A stretch of 64,000 nt of DNA from Felis catus (taxonomy: Eukaryota): positions 63,674,001 to 63,738,000 of the forward strand of contig NC_058384.1 of NCBI RefSeq assembly GCF_018350175.1, written 5' to 3'. The notes under the pieces were generated by a model. The model did no database searches, had not been told where the DNA came from, and worked only from the letters and a program-made list of their open reading frames with translations. Each line of letters opens with the position of its first letter. Within the stretch, counting starts at the first letter, position 1. Below are positions 35,091-47,700 of this stretch, piece after piece. Made by a program: the position numbers and the translations under genes.

Positions 35091-36285
35091 GGAAAACAAA
35101 TTCAAACAGTAAAGACGGATCTCAAATAAAAAGCATAAATTCCACCCTGCTCAGGCCCACACTCTTCATGGTCAATTTTTTAATGCCTGTGTAAATGTGC
35201 TGTGTGGATTCTTCGGGCATTGCTTTTTTTTTCCCCAGGTAGTAATTTCCATTTAATTTACTTCTACTATTAGATCTGTATATTCAATCGCCATTGGTCG
35301 TTCAGGCCATCCCACAGGCAGCGAAAACTCCTTCCCTTTCTTTGGAATTCAGCCTCGGGCTACACTCGACTGCCAGCCCCCCCCCCCTTTTTTTTTTACA
35401 GACGACACCGTGAGAAAACGGTCTACACTGTCCCTTTCCAGTCGCTCAATTCAACTTACTCTGGTTCCTATCCCACCGCATCTCTGGAACAAGGTGCTTC
35501 AAAATTACTAAAGGCAATTTTGCAATACCCACTGGGTCACATTTTAGTCCACGTTTACCTAATCGCTTACGTTTATCACTTTGACCAGGTTCCCTGATAC
35601 TTCTCTCCTGGATTCCTTCTTCCCCTCGTCTGCCCCTTCTCAACGCCCCCCTTTCCGGTTCTCTTCCCTCATCTCATTTTTCAGACGCAGACATCCCTCT
35701 CCAGGCCGTCTTATCCACTTCCCCGGCTTCAACAACGATCGACCTTCACACGCTCGCTCGCGCGCACGCACACCTCACACTTTTCCGTCGGGCTGCCAAG
35801 CCACGTTACCGAATATTCAATTGTCTGATAGGCATCCCACAGGCACCGAAAACTCGTTCTCTCCCCCAAAACAAAACAGAAAATGGCATCACTTTCCCCC
35901 AGTTGTCCAAGTCAGAGCGCTGGGAAATAACCTCGGCCTCATCCCCATCCCCGATCTAGTTTTCTCCGCCTGCAGTCGCCCTTCTCTAGGGCGGACCACC
36001 CCCGTCTCCTGCCTGGGTAAAAAACTTCCCAACTGGTCTCCTTGCCTCTAACTTCGTTCCCTCCTATCCATTCTCCCTACTGCAACCAGCGATCTTTAAA
36101 AAATGCAAACACAATTGTTCCCTTCTCGGCCAAGGCTCTTCGAATAAAATCACGGCCCTTCGGATAAAATCAACTAATTTACAAGGCCTTGCGCAATCGG
36201 CCCCTCCCATTCTCACAGGCCTCCTCTGTTACCTCTCCTTTCACCCACAGGCTGCTGACAGCTCCAGAACGTATCCGGCCCCCCG

Positions 36286-36323
<38 letters not shown>

Positions 36324-36399
36324 AGCCCCAATTCCCACCAGTCCAAGGTTCGGCTCTGGCGACACTTCCTTCAGGAAGCGGGCGCTTAAAAGGCAAATG

Positions 36400-37450
36400 C
36401 TCAAAGAATGAAATCCGAGGGGGCATCCGAGCAGCGCTCTCGGCTCCGGACTAAGGTTTACGGAAAGTCCGGATTTACCGGAAGTTCAGGGCAAAGGTCA
36501 AATCCCGATCGTGAACCTTTCCCGAAGTTCGCGGGGCAGTCCGACCCTTGCTAGATTCCGCCCTTATGAGTCATGGCTGCTAGTCCCAGTCTTTCGATGG
36601 GTCTCGAAGTCGACACCGGCCGGCTCCGGCGCCGCCAACGTCCTCACACTCGAGGACGCAACCCGCACTCCCTCCTCGTGACGGCCCTGAAGCCGCCGTC
36701 GGGAAGAACTTGCGTTGCCCGCTTGCCCCAAAGCAAGATGGCTGCCAGTCTCTAGTCTCTCGACCCAAAGTGAAGCTATCCACGCCCCGGTTAATGCCGC
36801 TGCCAGGCTGCCCACACCTAGCATGGCCACCCCGGCTCATGCCTCACTATGGTCTCGAAGCCGCCTCTAACCGGCCAGGTTCCGGGAGGCGCTGCTCCGG
36901 ACGCGGCCGCCTCCCCCCCCCCCGCCTCCCCCGCGCCCGCGGCGGCGGCGGCGGCGGCGGCGGCCGGAGCCCGGATGCGGCGGCGTGCGACGGCACGGGA
37001 GGGCGGCGCGGATGGATCCAACATGGCGGCGCCGAGCCTGAGCCGAGAGTGAGGCGGCGGGGCGGCGGGGTGGGGAGGGGGAGGCGAGCGGGACGGGGCG
37101 GGGCCGGGCGGGGCCGCGGAGGGCTAGGGGAAGGAAAGTGGAGGGGGAGGCGGAGGCGACGTCCAGCCCGAGAACCTCGAGAGAGGGAGGTGACGGGACG
37201 CTGCGAGGTGGGGGAGGGGAGCGGCCGAGGGGGCGTGCGGGGGAGGTGGCAACTGTGGGAGCGAGCAGGGGCGAGGCGGGGGATTGGGCGCGGGGAGGGG
37301 CGTAAACAAGGGCCGGGCCGGGCCCGGCCGGGGGTGCTGGCGCGGCCGAGGTGGGAGTGAGGCTGCGATCCCGCCGGATTGAGGGCGGTGGGCGCGGGAG
37401 GGAGCGGCCGAGGGTGCGGAGGGGAAGAGGCTGGTGGCATGTGGTGGGAG
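36400..37450 (+). promoter_or_regulatory. CpG island / DEDD promoter and first exon (donor at 37049)
   Basis: Very CpG-rich; ETS CCGGAAG, DR1-like AGGGCAAAGGTCA 36488-36500, (GGC)n at ~36941-36963, CCGAGA|gtgagg donor; C38 run at 36286-36323 upstream. Confidence 0.8.
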
Positions 37451-38195
37451 GGACTGGACTCTGGAGAGCGGTCTCGGGAGGGGGTGGGAGAGGGTGAGGA
37501 GGGGACTTCAGACGTGTGGGGGGGCGGTTTTGAAAGTGTGAAATTGGAGGTGGGAGGGGGAAGGGCCTAGGGGAGCATTTGGGTGGAAAAGGAGAGCACG
37601 GAGATTGGGGGGAATGGAGAGCGTGGCGGTGTGACGAGGTAATGGGGAAAGTGAGAGACTAAGAGGAAAGTTTGGGAGGAAGGGGAATGGGCTGGGAGAT
37701 AGGACAGTGGAGCTGCACGGGGGATAGAGGTTGGGGGTTTCCCTTTCCCCGTGGAAGGGAAGAGAGGGCAGAGTTAAGCAGCCTCAGTTGCAACCAATTC
37801 TAATTGCCAGGCCTTTCGCTTTTAATAGGGTGGGAAGGGCAGAAGGGAATGGTTTGGAGAAATGCGGAATTGGGAGAATTAGGGAATTTGGAGAACGGAT
37901 GAGGGTTCAAGTGGATTTGCTTTCCAGAGGCTCCCTGACTTACTGCTCCCTTGTTTTTCCTGGTTAGGGAAAGAAGGGAGAACGGGGAAGCCGGTGTCAC
38001 CGCCACCGAAGTGTAGAAGGAGTAAAGGACTTTTCTAGTTTCTAGCAATTAGCAGTGTAAGAATGGGGAAACAGCCATGCTGGTTTGGAGCCCTACATGC
38101 CAGGGTGGAGGCTCTGGAAGTCTGAGAAAGGGAACAGAAAACAGGATGGCATCTGGGCAGCCTGGATAATTAAATGATTGCTTTAGTTTCCAGAC

Positions 38196-38227
<32 letters not shown>

Positions 38228-38872
38228 CCTTCTGTTTAAGTGCTAAGAGGGAGGGGTCAGCGTTCACATATAGGAAAGGTTCCCTGGTGAAATGTAGATG
38301 TATCAGGAAGCCGGGCCTCAGTGGATATTTTGTTTTCACTGTGTGTAAAGGGAAAGGGTGAAGACAGAATTTGGAGGCTAGCTCTGGTCTGATAAGCGAA
38401 GGGATAGAAAGTGCCTTCTTTGGCTGTAATCATTTCCCTGTCTCCAGTTCTCCCTAAAGTTGAAAGTCAGTATTAAAATGTAACAAAAATGTAACGAAAT
38501 ACGTGGGTCTCATAAGGCATTGAGGAGTCCGGTGAGAAGGTATCAGAGGATGATTGGTTTTCCCGCAAGTTGTTGAATTTGGGACCTTTCTTGCCATGAG
38601 CCACCCAGGCTGGAAATTCTGGGAGTTGGTATTGTTTCGTGAATTGGCCAGCAGAGCGTTAGGGAGGCCTGGGGACTTGGTTGGGAGTGAGTTCTCCCCT
38701 TTAGCCCACAGTGGATCACTTTAATCGAAATGGCTTTAGGTGTGTCTGTGTATTTTTGGAACTGGGACTGACTAATTCTTTGGGCCTTTGATGTTTCAAA
38801 ATCAGGCTTGAAAATTGACTCTTTCCCCCTCATTTGTTTTTGTTTTGCTGCTGGCTTCCAACCTTGTGCTAG

Positions 38873-38905
38873 GAAGAGACCTGGGAAATTAAGTTTCTTG
38901 CAAAG
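38873..38905 (+). other. DEDD: 33-nt DEDD 5'UTR micro-exon
   Basis: Long pyrimidine tract plus TAG acceptor, and a consensus AAG|GTAAGT donor. Confidence 0.75.
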
Positions 38906-40800
38906 GTAAGTCTGGAACTTTCTATGTTTTTTTTGTTGTTGTTGTTGTTGTTTGTTTTTTTGTTTTTTTTGTTTTTTTTGAACAATGGAAGGGGATGGGA
39001 ATGGCAAGAGAAATGCATTGGGGTTGAGCCCAGTAAGGGGTTCGAGGCCAGGGAACGTGTGTTTTCACCTGCCCAGCTGAGTGCATAAGACCTGTTGCAG
39101 TCACCGTGTCTCTGGGTAACTGGAAATTGGTAGGAGAAGGAGAGCAGAAATCAGGTGTTTGGGGGCCAGCCCCCAGCTTTGGTTTGTCATTATCTAGTCG
39201 TCTCGGGGAGCTCTGAGAAACACATTTTTTTTTTAACATACAGAACTAGTACTCTAGTACAGTGTCTCTGAATGTTACTCTTGGAGGGCTGCTGAGGCAC
39301 CTCACCTTTGTCTTTTCGTTGTTCAGGGTTCCTGGAATCCTCCTTTTGAAAACATACTGTGTGATTCTGACTTCCAGATATTTGGTTACATTTTCCCTAT
39401 CCCACCAGCAGGAAGGCTCTTTCTGAACTCTTCAGGCTTCTCCATGCTGTTTTCATTCCAACTTTCAAGACCTCACTCTTTTTTAGTTCTTCCACATGAC
39501 TTTCGTCCCTCAGGGCTTCGGCGAGAGTCAAATACCTCTAGCTCCACGAAAATACAGATGTCATCCTTGTTGCGATGATACCAGAGTTGCGTCTTCCTTT
39601 CAAGAGATCATTCTTTTTTGTTGCCTCCACGTGACTGTCCTCTAAGGGCTTCTGAGAGAGCCAAGGACCTCAAAAAAATACGGATGTCCTTCCTGGTTGG
39701 GATGAGACTAGAGTTTGCCTGGAAGTAGAAACCAGATAGACAATTCTGTAGGTATATAGGCACGGTCTGTTGGCCCTGGGCTGGCTTGGGCCTCCCTAAA
39801 GAAAACAGACTAGCAAAAAACTACAGCTCCAGGAAATGCGGCCGTTCCTCGGAATAAAGAATTATTCTTGGGGAACTGTAGCGGGGGGACCCCTGTTAGG
39901 TTCTCGAGTGGACTCAAAGCAGCCCGCGGGGTCAGGACTCTCGTTGAGCGGAGTGTTTGGTCTGTTTCTTGTTATCTGGCAATATTTCAGATACCGGGAC
40001 TCAAAAGGTCTCTTAATTCTGCTGTTTAGAGGGGGGTACGTTCTCCTCACGACTCTGATATCTCTAGGATCTCTGTATAATTTAAGCTGTGTTCCCAAGC
40101 TTCACTGCCACAGAAAGCCGAGGATATTTTGGTTTAAGAGGAAGTTGGGCATGTTCTTTCAGCACTGAAGTTAGATCGATTCTTGGAACCCCATCTGGAT
40201 TGCTAACTGAGTGAACTCACCATCCCAGATGATAATTAAGTGGGGTGGGGGGGGCTGCGTATTAGCTTGCCCGTCAGCCTCCTGACAGTTCTCTCAAGGA
40301 CACGGCCTTGGGAAACTCTAGCCTCTTCTACGTTTTGCTTCATAGAATAAGCAGGAGGTCGGATCAGCAGTCAAATAAGGAAGGGTCTGCAACTCTAGGT
40401 TCAGGACTTGAAAGGTGGCTGTGAGGCCTAAGGGCGGGATCCTTTTTGTCTGTCTTGCAGAGGATGGCATTTCTCTTGTCTTCATAGAGATCCAGATTGA
40501 ACTGGGTCACATTCGACCTCCTGGGATGGGGCCGAAGAGAGTGTAGGCCCACCACTTGCTGCTCACCTGAATGGCAGCCGCAGGTGTCAGAGAAGCCAGG
40601 GTTGGAGTGGGTGGGACTCCTTCGGGTTCGTTGGACTTATGAGTTTATAGTCTGTGTCTGACCGGCTTTGCTTTTCTTCTGAAATACTGTTCGATGGGTT
40701 TGGGTCAGAGGGACCCAATGGCTTCCGTCTCTAGATCTAGGGGGGAAGGTGACATACTGTCTCTCTTCTTTGGCCCCTTTGTGTCATGGTCCATCGAGAA

Positions 40801-41036
40801 CAGGGTTTCTCATCCTCAGCATTATTGACATTTGGGGCTGGATAATTCTTTGTTGTGGGGGCTCTTCTGGGCATTCTAAGATGTTTAGGGACATCCGTGG
40901 CCTCTACTCACTGCATGCCACTGGCACAGTCCTTTACCCCTTCCAGTCATAACCGTCTGAAATGTCTCCAGACATCGCCAGATGTCCGGGGGGGGGGGAG
41001 GGGGGGGGCAGCGTCCTCCGTGGTTGAGAACCACTG
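40801..41036. mobile_element. MER20-like hAT DNA transposon fossil
   Basis: cagggtttctca...attgacatttggggctggataattctttgttgtgggg...aaatgtctccagacat...ttgagaaccactg. Confidence 0.75.
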
Positions 41037-41839
41037 ACCTAGAAGCGCTGATAATTCCTGGCACTTTGAATGATCCAGCCTGGGGTCTAGGACTTAAGGT
41101 GGCTGTTTCTTCCCTCCTATCTAGGGAGTTAACCCTCAGAGGACTGAGGTCTATTACAGAATTGCATCCATTGATATATAATAATTAGGACCATAATGCT
41201 TTCCTGCATTTTGCCTCATTTTCCAGGGGCGAGGTATGTAGGGACCATATTCATTTCCGGGGACTTAAAGTCAGAACACTTTGAATTAGGGAGCTCTCTA
41301 GCAACCTGCTCTTAGGATTGGTTGAATGTGAAACCTGCCCATCTGCTTTTTCTGAGATCCTCATAATCAGCAGCTGGCCAAGAGGAACAGGTGGGACAGG
41401 GAACAGGGAGACGCCTAAGGAGGCTCGGTTTTCTCATGTTGCCTGCTATGAGCAAGGAGTTACTTTCCTTCAGCACCCCCCCCCACCCCGCCCCCATTTG
41501 TACCCAGTAAGTACAACAGGTGAGAGGAAGATACGGAGAAAACTACCCTGTAGTTGGGTAGCTGTTTTCCCAGCTGTTCCCATGCTCAGCAGGCGAGTGG
41601 GGGGTGGGGGGCATCTGGGCTTTCCTAAGTAGCTGTGAGCCGTATTTCTTGTCCGTATATCAAACCCATGTCTGGGGGCTAAGTGAGTGCGGGATGGAGC
41701 TCCCCTTTTCTTATGGGTATGAGTCTCTGCTTCCCTTTTAGGTTCTTGAGGAAGGGAGGATTGGGTTCACTTGCTCTGCAGTTTTCTAAGACCCCATCAA
41801 CTTGACTCTTTGGAAGTGGCTTATTTTATTCTCTCTCTC

Positions 41840-44800
41840 TTTTAAACTTTATTTATTTTGCGAGAGAGAGCGTGCACACACACACTGTGAGCAGGGGAGA
41901 GGCAGAGAGAATCCCAAGCAGGTTCCATCCTGTCAGCGCAGAGCCTGACCCGGGGCTTGATCAAACCGTGGGATCATGACCTGACCTGAAATCCAGAGTC
42001 GGACGGCCACTTAACCGACTGAGCCACGCTGGCGCGCCTTATTCTCTTTTGTAACTTAGCCTCAGTGTCTCGGTGTATAAAACGGGACCACCAATCTTCT
42101 TGCTTAGTAGGGTGCCGTGGTATGGGTGGTTCCACACAGCATAGGGGAGGCTGCGGCTAGCTAGAGTGTATGCGTGGTAACCAGGCTGTGTGTATCTGTT
42201 TTTGTTTTTTTTAATTTTTAAATTTATTTTTGAGAGAGAGAGACACAGAGTGCAAGTGGGGGAGAGGTGGAGAGAGAAGGAGACACAGAATCCGAAGCAG
42301 GCTCCAGGCTCCGAGCTGTCAGCACAGAGCCCGACATGGGGCTCGACCTCACGAACTGCAAGCTCTTGACCTGAACCGAAGTCAGACGCTCAACCGACTG
42401 AGCCACCCAGGCGCCCCTGTGTGGGTTTGTTTCTTAATTGATGCTGCTTTTGATGATCTCTTGGAGACTAAGCTCAGTTCAGTAGGTTGTGAGTACTGTG
42501 TACCAACCTCTATGCATTGCTAGGCACTGAGAATATAAAGGTGAATGTGACTTAGTCCATTTCCACGAATTGCTTAAGATGGGCTGGGGTGATAAATACA
42601 CAAATGGGGCTTAAAAGAAATACGCATGATGTTCCATAGGAGCACAGAAGAGGATTACGTGTCCCAGCATGGAGGTGTGGAGAATGAATTTGAAGATGGT
42701 ATCTGAGCTGACTCGTAAAGGACGAGTAGGAGTTAGCCATGTGAAAAAGAGGAGTGGTATAGGGGGGTAGGGTACAGAGAAGGGAGAGGGGCACTCAGGC
42801 AATGGCAGTAGCCTGAAGAAAGGGACAGAGAAATGAACTGCCTGCTGTATGTGAGTTATAAACAAACTGATAACGGTAGAGAATCAAAAGTGGGTTATGA
42901 GGTTGAAAAGGTAGGCAGGGCCTGATCTCAGAAGGCTTGGTGTGTGGTGTGAGGAGTCTGGAGTGTTCTAGGTAAGGAGGGGGCTGTAGATAGGTCTTAA
43001 GCAGAAAAGCGATGTGGTCAGTTGTGCATTTTATTTTTAAAAATGTGGGTTTTTTTAAATGTTTTTATTTATTTTTGAGACAGAGCGTGAGCAGAGGAGG
43101 GGCAGAGAGAGAGGGAGACACAATCTGAAGCAGGCTCCAGGCTCTGAGCGGTCAGCACAGAGCCCGATGCGGGGCTCGAACTCACGGACTGTGAGATCAT
43201 GACCTGAGCTGAAGTTGGATGCTTAACCGACTGAGCCACCCAGGCGCCCCCCAAAAAATGTTTTTTTCAATGTTTATGTTTGAGAGAGAGAGAGAGAGAG
43301 ACAGAGCATGAGTGGGAGAGAGGCAGAGAGAAACAGAGACACAGAATCCAAAGCAGGTTCCAGGCTCTGAGCTGTCCGCATGAGCCTGACACAGGGCTCA
43401 AACTCATAGACTGCAAGATCATGACCTGAGCTGAAGTCGGACGCTTAACCAACTGAGCCACCCAGGCGCTCCTCAGTTGTGCGTTTTAGATAGCGAATTC
43501 AGCTGGATATGAGGGATGGACTTAGGTGGGTTAAGATTGGTGGGCAGGGGAGCCCTCGAGAGGCTGTTGCCATAGTCCAAGTGAGGGATCATCAGGACCT
43601 GAAGCAGGGCAGTGGCGGTGGAGGTGATTGGAGACATATTTAGAAGTGGCTTCAATAGGAATATATAATGGATCAGGTGATTGGAGCTGTGTTTTGGTGG
43701 AACAGTATTGGGCAGCACGTGTGTGTGACAAGTGTGGATGTGGAAGCCTGGTGCTTGGTCACAGGTCATTGACATTACCCAGCTTGATGCTGAAACTTGG
43801 TGAACCAAACACTGAATTATGGGGGCGCCTGGGGGGCCCAGTCGGGTGAGCGTCTGACTCGATTTTGGCTCAGGTTACGATCACGACTGTGAGATTAAAC
43901 CCCGCGTCAGGCTCTTTGCTGAGCATGGAGCCTGCTTGGGATTCTCTGTCTCCCTCTCTGCCCCTCTCCTCGTTCTCTCTCTCTCGTGCTCTCTCTCTTC
44001 CAAAATAAATAAATATTAAAAAAAAAAACCCACAAATGCCAAATTATAGAACGAGTGTCGGCTGCTGTGGGTCATTGCGAGGGGGTGGGGAAATGACAAC
44101 CACAAGGAAGGAGTAGAAGGGGCATATATCCAAATGGTGCGTGAACATCATTGGTGAGTTCACCTGGCATAGGAGGGTCACGAGCGTGCTCAACGTAGTA
44201 ATGTTCGTTGATGTAAATCCATGAGTTTGGGTGAACATTATTGGTTAGCCTCCTGTGCAGTTAGGCTTTTGAACTTGGTTGGATTGCAGGAAGTATGAGG
44301 ATAAGGTTGGGGGAGGGGGTGGCTCTGGGCTGCAGAGGTCAGGGGTGCTGATCTCTTTGAAATCTCTTTCACAATCATCGCCCCAGCAGTTTCGCATGTA
44401 TTTTCTAATTGGATTCTTAACAAGTCTGAGGAGTAGCTTCTTTCCTTCATGTTTTGTAGATGGGGGACAGTGCGACTTTGAAGTGAGGTGACTTGCCTGA
44501 AGTCACACAGCTACACAGCTAGCTTGTTAATGATACAGGCAGAGTGAAAACTAGGTCTTATCTAAAGATTTTCAGTTTCCCTACTGTCCGTCTGTAGGTT
44601 TGTGTCCCGCAGCTTCCATATTAGTTAAGGGCGAATTCTTGGGGCGCCTGGGTGGCTCAGTGGGTTAAGCATCTGACTTCAGCTCTGGTCACGATCTCAC
44701 AGTTTGTGAGTTTAAGCCCCGCGTCGGGCTCTGTGCTGACAGCTCAGAGCCTGGAGCCTGTTTCTGATTCTGCGTCTCCCTCTCTCTCTGACCCTCCTTG

Positions 44801-44850
44801 GCTCACGCTCTGTCTCTCTCTCTCAAAAATAAACAAACATTTAAAAAAGA
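41840..44850. mobile_element. Can-SINEs in DEDD intron 2 (41840-42038-, 42215-42417-, 43060-43250-, 43265-43472-, 43821-44030+, 44641-44850+) within MIR/L2 remnants
   Basis: Characteristic heads, (CT)n/(GA)n tracts and A/T tails. Confidence 0.8.
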
Positions 44851-45314
44851 AAGTGAATTCTCTACTTTTCTCGGGATTGCCTACCTTTAAGAGGTGAGAT
44901 GGTTGGGGGTAGGAGGGAGAGCACAAAGGGACCAAAAGCAGTATTTGGGGGGCAGGGGAAGAATCGGGGTAACCTCTAACAGCAATTCCTGCTGAGTCTG
45001 CAGCCTGAAGTTGCATATAACACTCTCAGGGAACGCGACCCTGTTTCTCCAGTAGGGTCTGGACTTAAGGTAACAGCCGTTGGATGTGGAGAGCTCTGGG
45101 CTTTATTTTGCAATAATCACTTTTTAAAACGTGATAAACCCTCAGTGTTGCCGTGCGCCAGGCACGGCGTTAGGCGCTGGGGGTTCGGGAGCGAACAAGA
45201 CCAGTTCTTCCACCGGGTGGCTCACAGGCTCTGTTTCCTCGTCCCTACAGTGTAGCGGGGCCCGCGGCCGCCGAGCGGGGACTCTGGACCGCGCCGCGCA
45301 CCTGAGCCCCCGGC

Positions 45315-47700
45315 ATGGCGGGCCTGAAGCGGCGGGCCGGCCAGGTGTGGCCCGAAGAACGCGGCGAGCAGGAGCACGGGCTCTATAGCCTGCACCGCAT
45401 GTTTGACATCGTGGGCGCCCACCTGACACACAGGGACGTGCGCGTCCTTTCCTTCCTCTTTGTCGATGTCATCGATGACCACGAGCGTGGCCTCATCCGA
45501 AACGGACGTGACTTCTTGCTGGCGTTGGAGCGCCAGGGCCGCTGTGACGAGAGTAACTTCCGCCAGGTGCTGCAGCTGCTGCGTATCATCACTCGCCACG
45601 ACCTGCTGCCCTACGTCACCCTCAAGAGGAGACGGGCCGGTGAGGGTGCACGAGGGGCCAGACCGCAGGGCCCGGGGACCAGTCGTGGGAGGCCTGGAGC
45701 CGGCAGCACAGGAGCCCGGGTGGGAGGAGGCGATGACCCTGGGGGCTACCTAGGAGGAGTTAGGAGGCCCGTGGGAGGGTTGGACCGGGGGCGGGGGGTG
45801 CATCTTTTCCTGAAGGACCCCCTCCCCTCCTATAGTGTGCCCCGATCTTGTAGACAAGTATCTGGAGGAGACGTCAATTCGCTACGTGACCCCCAGAGCC
45901 CTCAGCGATCCAGAACCGAGGCCTCCCCAATCCCCTAAAACAGGTAAGAAGATAGGAACTCCTCTGAATTTTCCTGGCTGGCTCGGTCAGCGGAGCATGC
46001 ACTCTTGACCTTGGGGTTGTGAGGTCAAGTCCCATTTTGGGAATAGCGCTCACTTAAAAAAAAAAAAAAAGAAGACCCTAAACTCGTCATTTTTCCAGCC
46101 TCGCCAGCCTGCATGAAAGGGCACTGGGTCTCTCTCACCCCCTCTCCCCCCAGCATCTAGCCCTATAAAAATTAGGTGAGGTGTTAATGCTTCACCTGGG
46201 TCCTGTGATTGTCCCCACATCGTGTGTCCTCTTTTCAGGTCCTGTAGGCTTTTAGTGCTAAGTCTTAAGTGATTCCTTCCTCATTCCAAGAGATCGGTTT
46301 GTATTTCTACTTTTCCCCTACTGTGTTTTTTCCCCTTTTCCCCTCTGGCCAGTGCCTCCCCACTATCCTGTGGTGTGCTGCCCCACTTCGGGCCCTCAGA
46401 TGTGTAGCAAGCGGCCAGCTCGAGGGAGAGCCACACTCGGGAGCCAGCGAAAACGCCGGAAGTCAGTAACACCAGATCCCAAGGAAAAGCAGACATGTGG
46501 TGAGGAAGTTTAAGGGTTCTGGAGGTGGAGCAGATGGGAGGGGGACATACAGAGAAGTGCTGAGACCCCGGGCAGTTCATGCTGTTTAGTGCGAGGCTCG
46601 CATTGAATGGGTGAATGATTTAGTGGGATTGAATGGCCTCATCTGTGGGGAGAGAATTCCTCTGTCTTTGTGGCAGAGTCCAATTCACGTCTTTCTAGTT
46701 AATACGAGATCAAAGGGATGCTGTTACAACATCCTTATTGTAGGATGGACCAAGTTTTGATCGAATACTAAAATGAACTCGTGTGCCTGGGGGCGCCTGG
46801 GTGGCTTAGTCGGTTAAGCCTTGGACTTCGGCTCAGGTCATGATCTCAAGGTTCACGGGTTTGAGCCCCGGCACTGGGCTCTGTGCTGACAGCTTAGAGC
46901 CTGGAGCCTGCTTTGAGTTCTGTGTGTGTGTGTGTGTGTGTGTGTCTCTCTCTCTCTCTCTGCCCCTCCCCCGCTCACGCTCTTTGTCTCTCAAAAATAA
47001 ATAAAGCATTTAAAAAATATATTAAAACCAAAATGAAAACAATTAAATGAACTTGTGCCTGTTAGGAACATACTGCCTAGAAGCAGGGTGCTCCTTGTGA
47101 GGGATGGCAGTGATCTGGCCTGGGCCTGGCCCGTTTAAAGGAAACTCGTGTGTTCAGGCGAGGATTTCAGAGGTGCTTGGAAAAGAACTGGTCCCTGGGG
47201 AGAGGTAGGAAAGCTGTCAGGTGACGTTCCCAGCTCTGCTCCTCCGCTGGTCTTCCAGCCCCCCCGTGCCCGCTTGTCCGCGCCCCCTCCGCAACCGCTT
47301 TGCGTGTCTTCTCCTCCCCACAGACATCAGACTGCGGGTTCGGGCCGAATACTGCCAGCACGAGACCGCTCTGCAAGGCAACGTGTTCTCGAACAAGCAG
47401 GACCCACTGGAGCGGCAGTTTGAGCGCTTCAACCAGGCCAACACCATCCTCAAGTCCCGGGACCTGGGCTCCATCATCTGTGACATCAAGTTCTCCGAGC
47501 TCACCTACCTCGACGCCTTCTGGCGCGACTACATCAATGGCTCGCTACTAGAGGCGCTCAAAGGTGTCTTTATCACAGACTCCCTCAAGCAGGCTGTGGG
47601 CCACGAAGCCATCAAGCTGCTGGTGAATGTGGACGAGGAGGACTACGAGCTGGGCCGGCAGAAACTCCTGAGGAACTTGATGCTGCAGGCACTGCCCTGA
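45315..47700 (+). CDS. DEDD: Death effector domain-containing protein, 4 coding exons, 318 aa
   Basis: Exons 45315-45639, 45836-45943, 46353-46499, 47324-47700 sum to 957 nt. MAGLKRRAGQVWPEE..., DED with RHDL motif, DIRLRVRAEYCQH...LLRNLMLQALP*. Confidence 0.98.

What the first reader, a model, noticed from the sequence alone, without database searches (positions are those of the whole stretch)
37019..45305. Three-exon DEDD uORF starting at a perfect TISU/YY1 ATG, with a frame-neutral 33-nt micro-exon
Seen: exon 1 contains CAACATGGCGGC (37019-37030), an exact match to the TISU consensus SAASATGGCGGC. Splicing 37023-37048 + 38873-38905 + 45251-45305 gives MAAPSLSREKRPGKLSFLQSVAGPAAAERGLWTAPRT*, 37 aa. 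It stops 9 nt before the DEDD ATG (45315). The middle exon is exactly 11 codons, so skipping it keeps the frame and the same stop (26 aa form). An in-frame ATG also lies at 36975. Inference: a strong initiator with so short a gap before the main ATG should repress DEDD translation or encode a microprotein with two splice forms. A 3n 'UTR' exon is what coding constraint would predict, although it occurs by chance one time in three.
Basis: partly seen in the sequence, partly recalled or inferred. Interest (0 to 1): 0.7.

Follow-up and report, generated by a model that had tools for sequence, protein, structure and literature searches.

The report
Known upstream ORF of DEDD gene
This cat-family genome carries the same short spliced reading frame ahead of the DEDD gene that is already catalogued as translated in humans; it likely dampens DEDD protein output and probably makes no useful peptide, while in snakes the apparently equivalent start codon is predicted to begin a longer DEDD protein.

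Summary
Both splice forms (37 and 26 codons, exons 26+33+55 nt) are listed among human Ribo-seq ORFs as c1riboseqorf212 and c1riboseqorf211, with strongly negative PhyloCSF and no mass-spectrometry studies. Four unnamed transcript assemblies keep the same ATG, length and stop. The peptide is poorly constrained here: 7 of 17 exon-3 codons changed in this lineage, all by AT-to-GC changes, against 3 of 108 in the adjoining DEDD exon, yet the stop survived. The best reading is a conserved regulatory uORF starting in a common YY1/TISU-type motif (3,286 copies in this genome); repression is inferred, not tested. The 3n micro-exon is no sign of coding: human also uses a 29-nt form, which here would give a 13-codon uORF and a 77-nt gap. 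One point I did not find in print: the uORF is in frame with DEDD, and gene models of 12 snake species run an apparently orthologous ATG into DEDD as a 37-residue extension. The start site of transcription could not be tested.

The parts
36500..37499 (.). CpG-island promoter and first exon region of DEDD
   Evidence: GC 0.69-0.76, CpG observed/expected about 1.0 in two 500-nt bins
36975..36977 (+). Upstream ATG, in frame with the uORF in this genome (53 aa form); human counterpart is 49 nt upstream and out of frame
   Evidence: human c1norep242 coordinates
37012..37041 (+).
   Evidence: translation untested
37019..37030 (+). YY1/TISU-type motif containing the uORF ATG (37023)
37023..37048 (+). 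uORF part in exon 1 (26 nt), followed by GT donor
   Evidence: same size in human c1riboseqorf211/212
38873..38905 (+). 33-nt cassette micro-exon (included: 37 aa; skipped: 26 aa)
   Evidence: human 33-nt exon; included in P0121 and P0250, skipped in P0251 and P0252
38877..38905 (+). 29-nt form of the micro-exon (second AG 4 nt downstream); would end the uORF after 13 codons at TAA 38890-38892, 77 nt before the DEDD ATG
   Evidence: human c1norep242 exon coordinates; same AG present here and ORF computed; use in this species untested
45251..45305 (+). uORF part in exon 3 (55 nt) ending in TGA 45303-45305; GC 0.83; 7 of 17 codons changed in this lineage
45306..45314 (+). 9-nt gap (three sense codons) between uORF stop and DEDD ATG; keeps the two in one frame
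   Evidence: same three-codon spacing in P0007
45315..47700 (+). DEDD coding sequence, exons about 45315-45638, 45835-45942, 46352-46498, 47323-47700
   Evidence: tblastn 100% identity to Felidae DEDD P0145

Best explanation
This is the felid copy of a spliced upstream ORF of DEDD that is already catalogued as translated in human, and it likely works as a peptide-independent brake on DEDD translation. Shown: the ORF, its two splice forms, its human Ribo-seq listing, and the same ATG, length and stop in four other transcript assemblies. Inferred: on transcripts that start upstream of 37023, scanning ribosomes are captured at this strong-context ATG, translate 26 or 37 codons and stop 9 nt before the DEDD ATG, too close for efficient reinitiation, so DEDD comes mainly from leaky scanning, from transcripts that start further downstream, or from the short-uORF 29-nt splice form. 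Inferred: the ATG is held in place partly by the YY1 DNA site, and the stop by the need not to fuse the uORF to DEDD, with which it shares a frame.
For: Human c1riboseqorf211 and 212 have the same exon sizes and lengths. P0121, P0250 (37 aa) and P0251, P0252 (26 aa; P0252 on 52 contigs) end at the same stop. 0 of 57 named placental DEDD records fetched have an N-terminal extension. Peptide not constrained: PhyloCSF mammals -239.16 and -221.74, 0 MS studies; 7 of 17 exon-3 codons changed against 3 of the first 35 DEDD codons (Fisher p=0.009) and 3 of 108 (p=2e-5), 9 of 9 minimal base changes AT-to-GC; 11 of 18 identity is what a neutral simulation gives at 0.2-0.4 substitutions per site (means 12.4, 10.4, 9.0). 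In a CUL2 reporter, shortening the gap from 156 to 90 to 9 nt progressively repressed the main ORF (10.1101/2025.07.28.667205, section 14). 45.8% of catalogued uORFs show constraint on ORF structure but 2.5% on amino acids (PMC13275300 passages).
Against: No reporter, Ribo-seq or start-site data for this locus were seen in any species; one search gave no exonic reads. Stop retention is weak evidence per comparison: 29-49% neutral survival in simulation without indels, about 0.25 under the local AT-to-GC pressure (my arithmetic). The 57 records are a fraction of large clusters (15 of 217 listed for the largest). Mouse Dedd transcription often starts inside the annotated leader (10.1101/2022.02.10.479744 passages), so many mRNAs may lack the uATG. 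Reinitiation has been seen with gaps as short as 6 nt (PMC6614817 abstract). Non-felid orthologues are 14-17 of 17 identical to each other in exon 3, and the last 37 residues of P0121 equal the human peptide, so constraint outside this lineage is not excluded; their species are unknown.
Confidence: 0.64

Rival explanations
1. By-product of a promoter element: the ATG is conserved because it is the core of a YY1 site in a highly conserved CpG-island leader; some ribosomes translate the ORF that follows, with little effect on DEDD because most mRNAs start downstream or bypass it.
For: 3,286 copies of the motif in this genome; in 36% of TISU-motif genes the ATG is not the main start, and YY1 binds the motif (PMC2518114); leader sequence about 170 nt upstream is also conserved (14 of 14 codons identical to P0250, then a frameshifted middle); internal start sites in mouse Dedd.
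Against: Length and stop identical in human, this genome and 4 of 4 assemblies that reach exon 3; no fused placental DEDD among 57 records; human translation of both forms is catalogued.
Confidence: 0.23
2. Functional microprotein with two splice forms.
For: Sandmann et al. class the 37-aa form as 'conserved'; exon 1 and micro-exon residues are 18-19 of 19 identical across orthologues; non-felid exon-3 parts are 14-17 of 17 identical.
Against: PhyloCSF strongly negative and 0 MS studies; the 26-aa form is classed 'primatomorpha - young' by the same score; non-conservative changes (I to P, L to P, K to T) accepted in this lineage; the conserved half overlaps a YY1 site and splice signals; the 29-nt form breaks the frame.
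Confidence: 0.07
3. Relic or source of an N-terminally extended DEDD: the ATG is an alternative DEDD start, open in snakes and closed by a stop in placentals, with occasional readthrough giving a 41-codon-longer protein.
For: uATG and DEDD ATG share a frame in both 3n splice forms; 12 snake species have a 37-residue in-frame extension from an apparently orthologous ATG; one Varanus isoform has a 52-residue extension beginning M-A-A.
Against: In-frame has a 1 in 3 prior; only open frames are visible as protein records; the snake extension is variable (15 of 37 columns against 6 of 102+6 in DEDD) and unlike the mammalian exon-3 peptide; the stop context is not the TGA-CTAG readthrough motif (recalled); the one mammalian record with W at the stop (P0007) looks like a TGA=W call on unspliced DNA.
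Confidence: 0.06

Closest known systems
Human GENCODE Ribo-seq ORFs c1riboseqorf212 and c1riboseqorf211 (DEDD uORFs; Sandmann et al. 2023, PMC10032668, supplementary file 2)
   Same: Same gene, exon sizes 26+33+55 and 26+55 nt, lengths 37 and 26 aa, same stop; P0121, whose last 37 residues equal the human peptide, is 29 of 37 identical to the window's peptide.
   Different: Exon-3 part rewritten by GC-biased changes in this lineage; the upstream ATG is in frame here and out of frame in human.
TISU / YY1 element (Elfakess and Dikstein 2008, PMC2518114)
   Same: Motif with central ATG in strong context in the first exon of a CpG-island gene; the paper postulates that a TISU ATG followed by a stop inhibits the main ORF.
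   Different: TISU is defined at +5 to +30 from the start of transcription; here that distance is unknown and leaders of 120-186 nt before the ATG exist in orthologous assemblies. The paper's core is AAG-ATGGC; the window has AAC-ATGGC.
Peptide-independent repressive uORFs with short intercistronic gap (extended CUL2 uORF reporter, 10.1101/2025.07.28.667205; ORF-constrained uORFs of PMC13275300)
   Same: ATG, open frame and stop kept without amino-acid constraint; 9-nt gap.
   Different: Not tested for DEDD; here splicing offers three uORF geometries.
DEDD2 iORF microprotein (PMC11526972)
   Same: Non-canonical ORF in the paralogous gene, controlled by a cassette exon.
   Different: That ORF overlaps the coding sequence in another frame and has a shown protein and phenotype; no sequence relation to this uORF was tested or claimed.

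Membership tests
Orthologue of human c1riboseqorf211/212 | Same gene, exon structure, start and stop | tested here: met
Orthologue of human c1riboseqorf211/212 | Spliced and translated in this species | tested here: inconclusive
   no exonic reads or joints; no Ribo-seq available
TISU element | Sequence match around the ATG | tested here: met
TISU element | Located +5 to +30 from the transcription start | tested here: inconclusive
   No CAGE data. Human c1norep242 starts 49 nt upstream; ORFs in four spliced assemblies begin 120-186 nt upstream, so at least some transcripts do not meet it
TISU element | Leak-free initiation from a very short leader; YY1 binding | not testable with these tools
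   needs reporters and ChIP or EMSA
Conserved regulatory uORF | Start, open frame and stop conserved across mammals | tested here: met
   human, this genome and 4 of 4 assemblies reaching exon 3; 0 of 57 placental records fused; small sample, ORBL values not seen
Conserved regulatory uORF | Represses the main ORF | not testable with these tools
   inferred from geometry
Microprotein-coding uORF | Coding substitution signature | tested here: not met
   published PhyloCSF -239.16 and -221.74; 7 of 17 codons changed in this lineage
Microprotein-coding uORF | Peptide detected | tested here: inconclusive
   0 MS studies in the 2023 table; the 2026 HLA and PeptideAtlas tables of PMC13275300 were not seen

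The most novel reading that the evidence does not exclude
One ancient YY1-embedded ATG, in frame with DEDD since early amniotes, starts a 37-residue-longer DEDD in snakes and was turned into a repressive uORF in placentals by a stop 9 nt before the main ATG; in mammals a tandem acceptor on the micro-exon then acts as a splice switch between reinitiation-hostile uORFs (26 or 37 codons, 9-nt gap) and a permissive one (13 codons, 77-nt gap), setting DEDD output.
Probability: 0.15. Interest if true: 0.55.

Novelty: already known. Interest (0 to 1): 0.24.

Why it matters
As it stands, little: it is one of about 2,900 catalogued human uORFs, here shown intact in a felid. Two side results have some value. 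The GC-biased rewrite of exon 3 is a natural experiment that separates constraint on the peptide (weak) from constraint on the ORF (apparently kept). The shared frame with DEDD means that a single stop-loss change would give an extended DEDD, the state that snake gene models show, which makes the locus a tidy test case for uORF and N-terminal-extension interconversion and for splice-controlled reinitiation in a gene linked to apoptosis and the cell cycle.

Tried and rejected
Relatives' genomes: none held for this window. Reads: (4 runs, 44990-45385) gave 2 reads and 2 contigs, all intronic, no joints; the tool drops human-like reads, so this says nothing about expression, splicing or start sites. 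Retrocopy search with exon 3 in the own genome found only the locus itself and one weak 94-nt match at 73% identity (L002, not identified), so no processed copy records the leader. P0007 (unnamed NCBI record, W in place of the stop) first looked like a mammal that lost the stop; rejected because it begins and ends in sequence that looks intronic and has 5 W in its last 69 residues, as expected of a TGA=W call on unspliced DNA (inference). Search for fused proteins of 175-2000 aa with the P0121 tail returned only P0007 among 5 candidates (low sensitivity). P0253 matched only upstream leader and was left out of the ORF count. The 3n argument was rejected (29-nt form). The idea that the 13-codon form is less repressive has a counter-result: uORFs under 17 aa were more repressive than longer ones in binned proteomics. 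Paper searches: DEDD+uORF (3 of 5 listed), DEDD+upstream open reading frame (16 of 17), Dedd+hyperconserved, DEDD+translation terms (20 of 23), DEDD+NMD (the listed titles concern RNA decay nucleases, not this gene), uORF+N-terminal extension (15 of 123): no functional study of this uORF and no mention of the snake extension in the listings; the library lacks most subscription papers. Earlier findings of the scan: none. No structure or complex prediction was run; a 37-aa peptide with five homologues would not give a meaningful model.
Full report
Observation. Slicing the window at the stated coordinates reproduces the finding: the 12-mer at 37019-37030, canonical GT/AG ends for the three pieces, a 37-codon ORF with the 33-nt exon and a 26-codon ORF without it, both ending at TGA 45303-45305, 9 nt before the DEDD ATG at 45315. 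The downstream coding exons are 100% identical to a Felidae DEDD record. The motif is the only match in the window (0.03 expected) but one of 3,286 in the genome, against 41 for the reversed pattern. Three things were missed: the uORF shares the DEDD frame (123 or 90 nt upstream); an out-of-frame ATG at 37012 opens 9 codons across the uORF start; and a second AG lies 4 nt inside the micro-exon.

It is already catalogued. In supplementary file 2 of Sandmann et al. 2023 (PMC10032668; I saw the three DEDD rows and main-text passages) the human gene has c1riboseqorf212 (37 aa, exons of 26, 33 and 55 nt, classed 'conserved'), c1riboseqorf211 (26 aa, micro-exon skipped, classed 'primatomorpha - young') and c1norep242 (52 aa, from an ATG 49 nt upstream, using a 29-nt form of the micro-exon). 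PhyloCSF in mammals is -239.16, -221.74 and -356.36, and the number of MS studies is 0 for all three.

Conservation of the ORF. A search seeded from an upstream-extended DEDD record found P0121 (1 hit of 1 candidate), an ORF from a spliced contig whose last 37 residues equal the human peptide. An exhaustive search with P0121 gave 4 hits: P0250 (37-aa form), P0251 and P0252 (26-aa form; P0252 on 52 contigs), and P0253, which matches only upstream leader and was set aside. All 4 assemblies that reach exon 3 end at the same stop. Their species are not given. None of 57 named placental DEDD records fetched has an N-terminal extension, although loss of the stop would produce one; these are a subset of large clusters. 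Per comparison, survival of stop and frame is not rare under neutrality (29-49%, no indels modelled), so the support is cumulative and moderate.

Constraint on the peptide. Exon 1 and the micro-exon give 18-19 of 19 identical residues, exon 3 only 10-11 of 18. Against P0121 and P0250, 7 of 17 exon-3 codons have changed in this lineage, needing at least 9 base changes, all AT to GC, among them I to P, L to P and K to T; the adjoining DEDD exon (GC3 0.83) took 3 changes in 108 codons, all in the first 35 (Fisher p=0.009 against the first 35, 2e-5 against 108). So the same mutational pressure was filtered in DEDD and not in the uORF, while the TGA survived (chance about 0.25 by my arithmetic). 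The 11 of 18 identity fits a neutral simulation at 0.2-0.4 substitutions per site (range recalled). The conserved half overlaps a YY1-type site and splice signals, and leader 170 nt upstream is also conserved yet frameshifted in the middle, so identity there need not be coding. Against this, the non-felid exon-3 parts are 14-17 of 17 identical to each other; without DNA or species names I could not compute dN/dS.

The micro-exon. A 3n length would favour coding only if it were the sole form. Human uses a 29-nt form too, and the same AG is present here. With it, the ORF from 37023 would stop after 13 codons at TAA 38890-38892, 77 nt before the DEDD ATG. The abstract of PMC6614817 gives about 78 nt as the best gap for reinitiation in mammals, but also reports reinitiation at 6 nt. 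In 10.1101/2025.07.28.667205 (passages and section 14) shortening a CUL2 gap from 156 to 90 to 9 nt increased repression, though short uORFs were more repressive than long ones in binned proteomics. A splice switch is therefore possible and untested; its use in this species is unknown.

TISU status. PMC2518114 (sections 5 and 12 and passages) defines TISU at +5 to +30 from the transcription start, shows YY1 binding, finds that in 36% of motif genes the ATG is not the main start, and postulates that such ATGs inhibit translation. The positional criterion could not be tested. Longer leaders exist (49 nt in human, 120-186 nt in the four assemblies), and passages of 10.1101/2022.02.10.479744 report that the mouse Dedd leader overlaps two promoters and that transcription starts inside it. 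I file the site as a YY1/TISU-type motif, not as a shown TISU. Reads from this species did not help: laid 2 reads and 2 contigs from 4 runs, all intronic.

Snakes. Among 120 listed of 433 DEDD hits and their cluster members, gene models from 12 snake species (boas, pythons, colubrids, elapids, vipers) carry a 37-residue in-frame extension that begins M-A-A-P or M-A-S-P; where upstream sequence is shown it reads G-A-A-G-P-N-M against G-A-D-G-S-N-M in mammals (10 of 20 identical, pairwise E=0.006). Of 24 snake-type records, 15 contain this start; the rest use other first exons or start later. One of the Varanus isoforms has a 52-residue extension beginning M-A-A, others are 318 aa; several other lizards are annotated at 318 aa. 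The snake extension is variable (22 of 37 columns invariant against 102 of 108 in DEDD). Orthology of the ATG is likely; translation of the extension is only predicted; and only open frames are visible as protein records. The one mammalian record with W at the stop (P0007) is probably a TGA=W call on unspliced DNA and is not counted.

Mechanism and verdict. Most likely (0.64) a peptide-independent repressive uORF: capture at a strong ATG, termination 9 nt before the main ATG, poor reinitiation, with DEDD made by leakage, downstream starts or the 29-nt form; all steps after 'translated in human' are inferred. This fits the general picture in PMC13275300 (main-text passages; DEDD is not named in the main text): 1,335 of 2,915 uORFs show constraint on ORF structure and 74 on amino acids. 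That paper's supplementary tables (ORBL, HLA peptides, CRISPR) bear directly on this locus and were not seen. Rivals: by-product of a YY1 site (0.23), microprotein (0.07), extended-DEDD relic or readthrough (0.06). PMC11526972 and PMC12313729 (passages) concern DEDD2, not this ORF. Searches showed no functional study of this uORF and no mention of the snake extension. Novelty: already known; interest 0.24.

Noticed in passing
window 45000-45700: A second CpG-rich island (GC 0.61-0.63, CpG o/e up to 0.93) covers exon 3; DEDD GC3 is 0.83 and all inferred leader changes are AT to GC, suggesting lineage-specific GC-biased conversion or a new island, possibly an internal promoter that would bypass the uORF.
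   Followed up: partly
window 45254-45255: A second AG 5 nt into exon 3; if used, the uORF shifts frame and overlaps DEDD (52 or 63 aa, ending at 45388). No evidence of use.
   Followed up: partly
window 36849-37022: A further in-frame ATG at 36849; its first 14 codons are identical to P0250, the middle is frameshifted, the end realigns: conserved DNA without coding constraint.
   Followed up: partly
window 61467-62628: Exons matching the prefoldin part of P0082 on the + strand (prefoldin 2-like neighbour). Several bird, turtle and snake gene models fuse DEDD to prefoldin 2 (P0070, P0082, P0103, P0109, P0110, P0122): read-through transcripts or annotation merges.
   Followed up: no
P0175 (koala DEDD isoform): A 16-residue extension ending A-P-E-P-R-P-S-M could be the same sequence around the stop read in another frame, which would mean a different gap length in marsupials. 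Inference from peptide only.
   Followed up: no
window 12610 and 16980, - strand: Two more YY1-type ATG motifs on the opposite strand, probably at first exons of neighbouring genes.
   Followed up: no
window about 36280-36324: A run of about 40 C upstream of the DEDD promoter; length may be an assembly artefact.
   Followed up: no
L002 (G000:C39:13151714-13151807): 94-nt match at 73% identity to DEDD exon 3; possibly the paralogue DEDD2, not checked.
   Followed up: no
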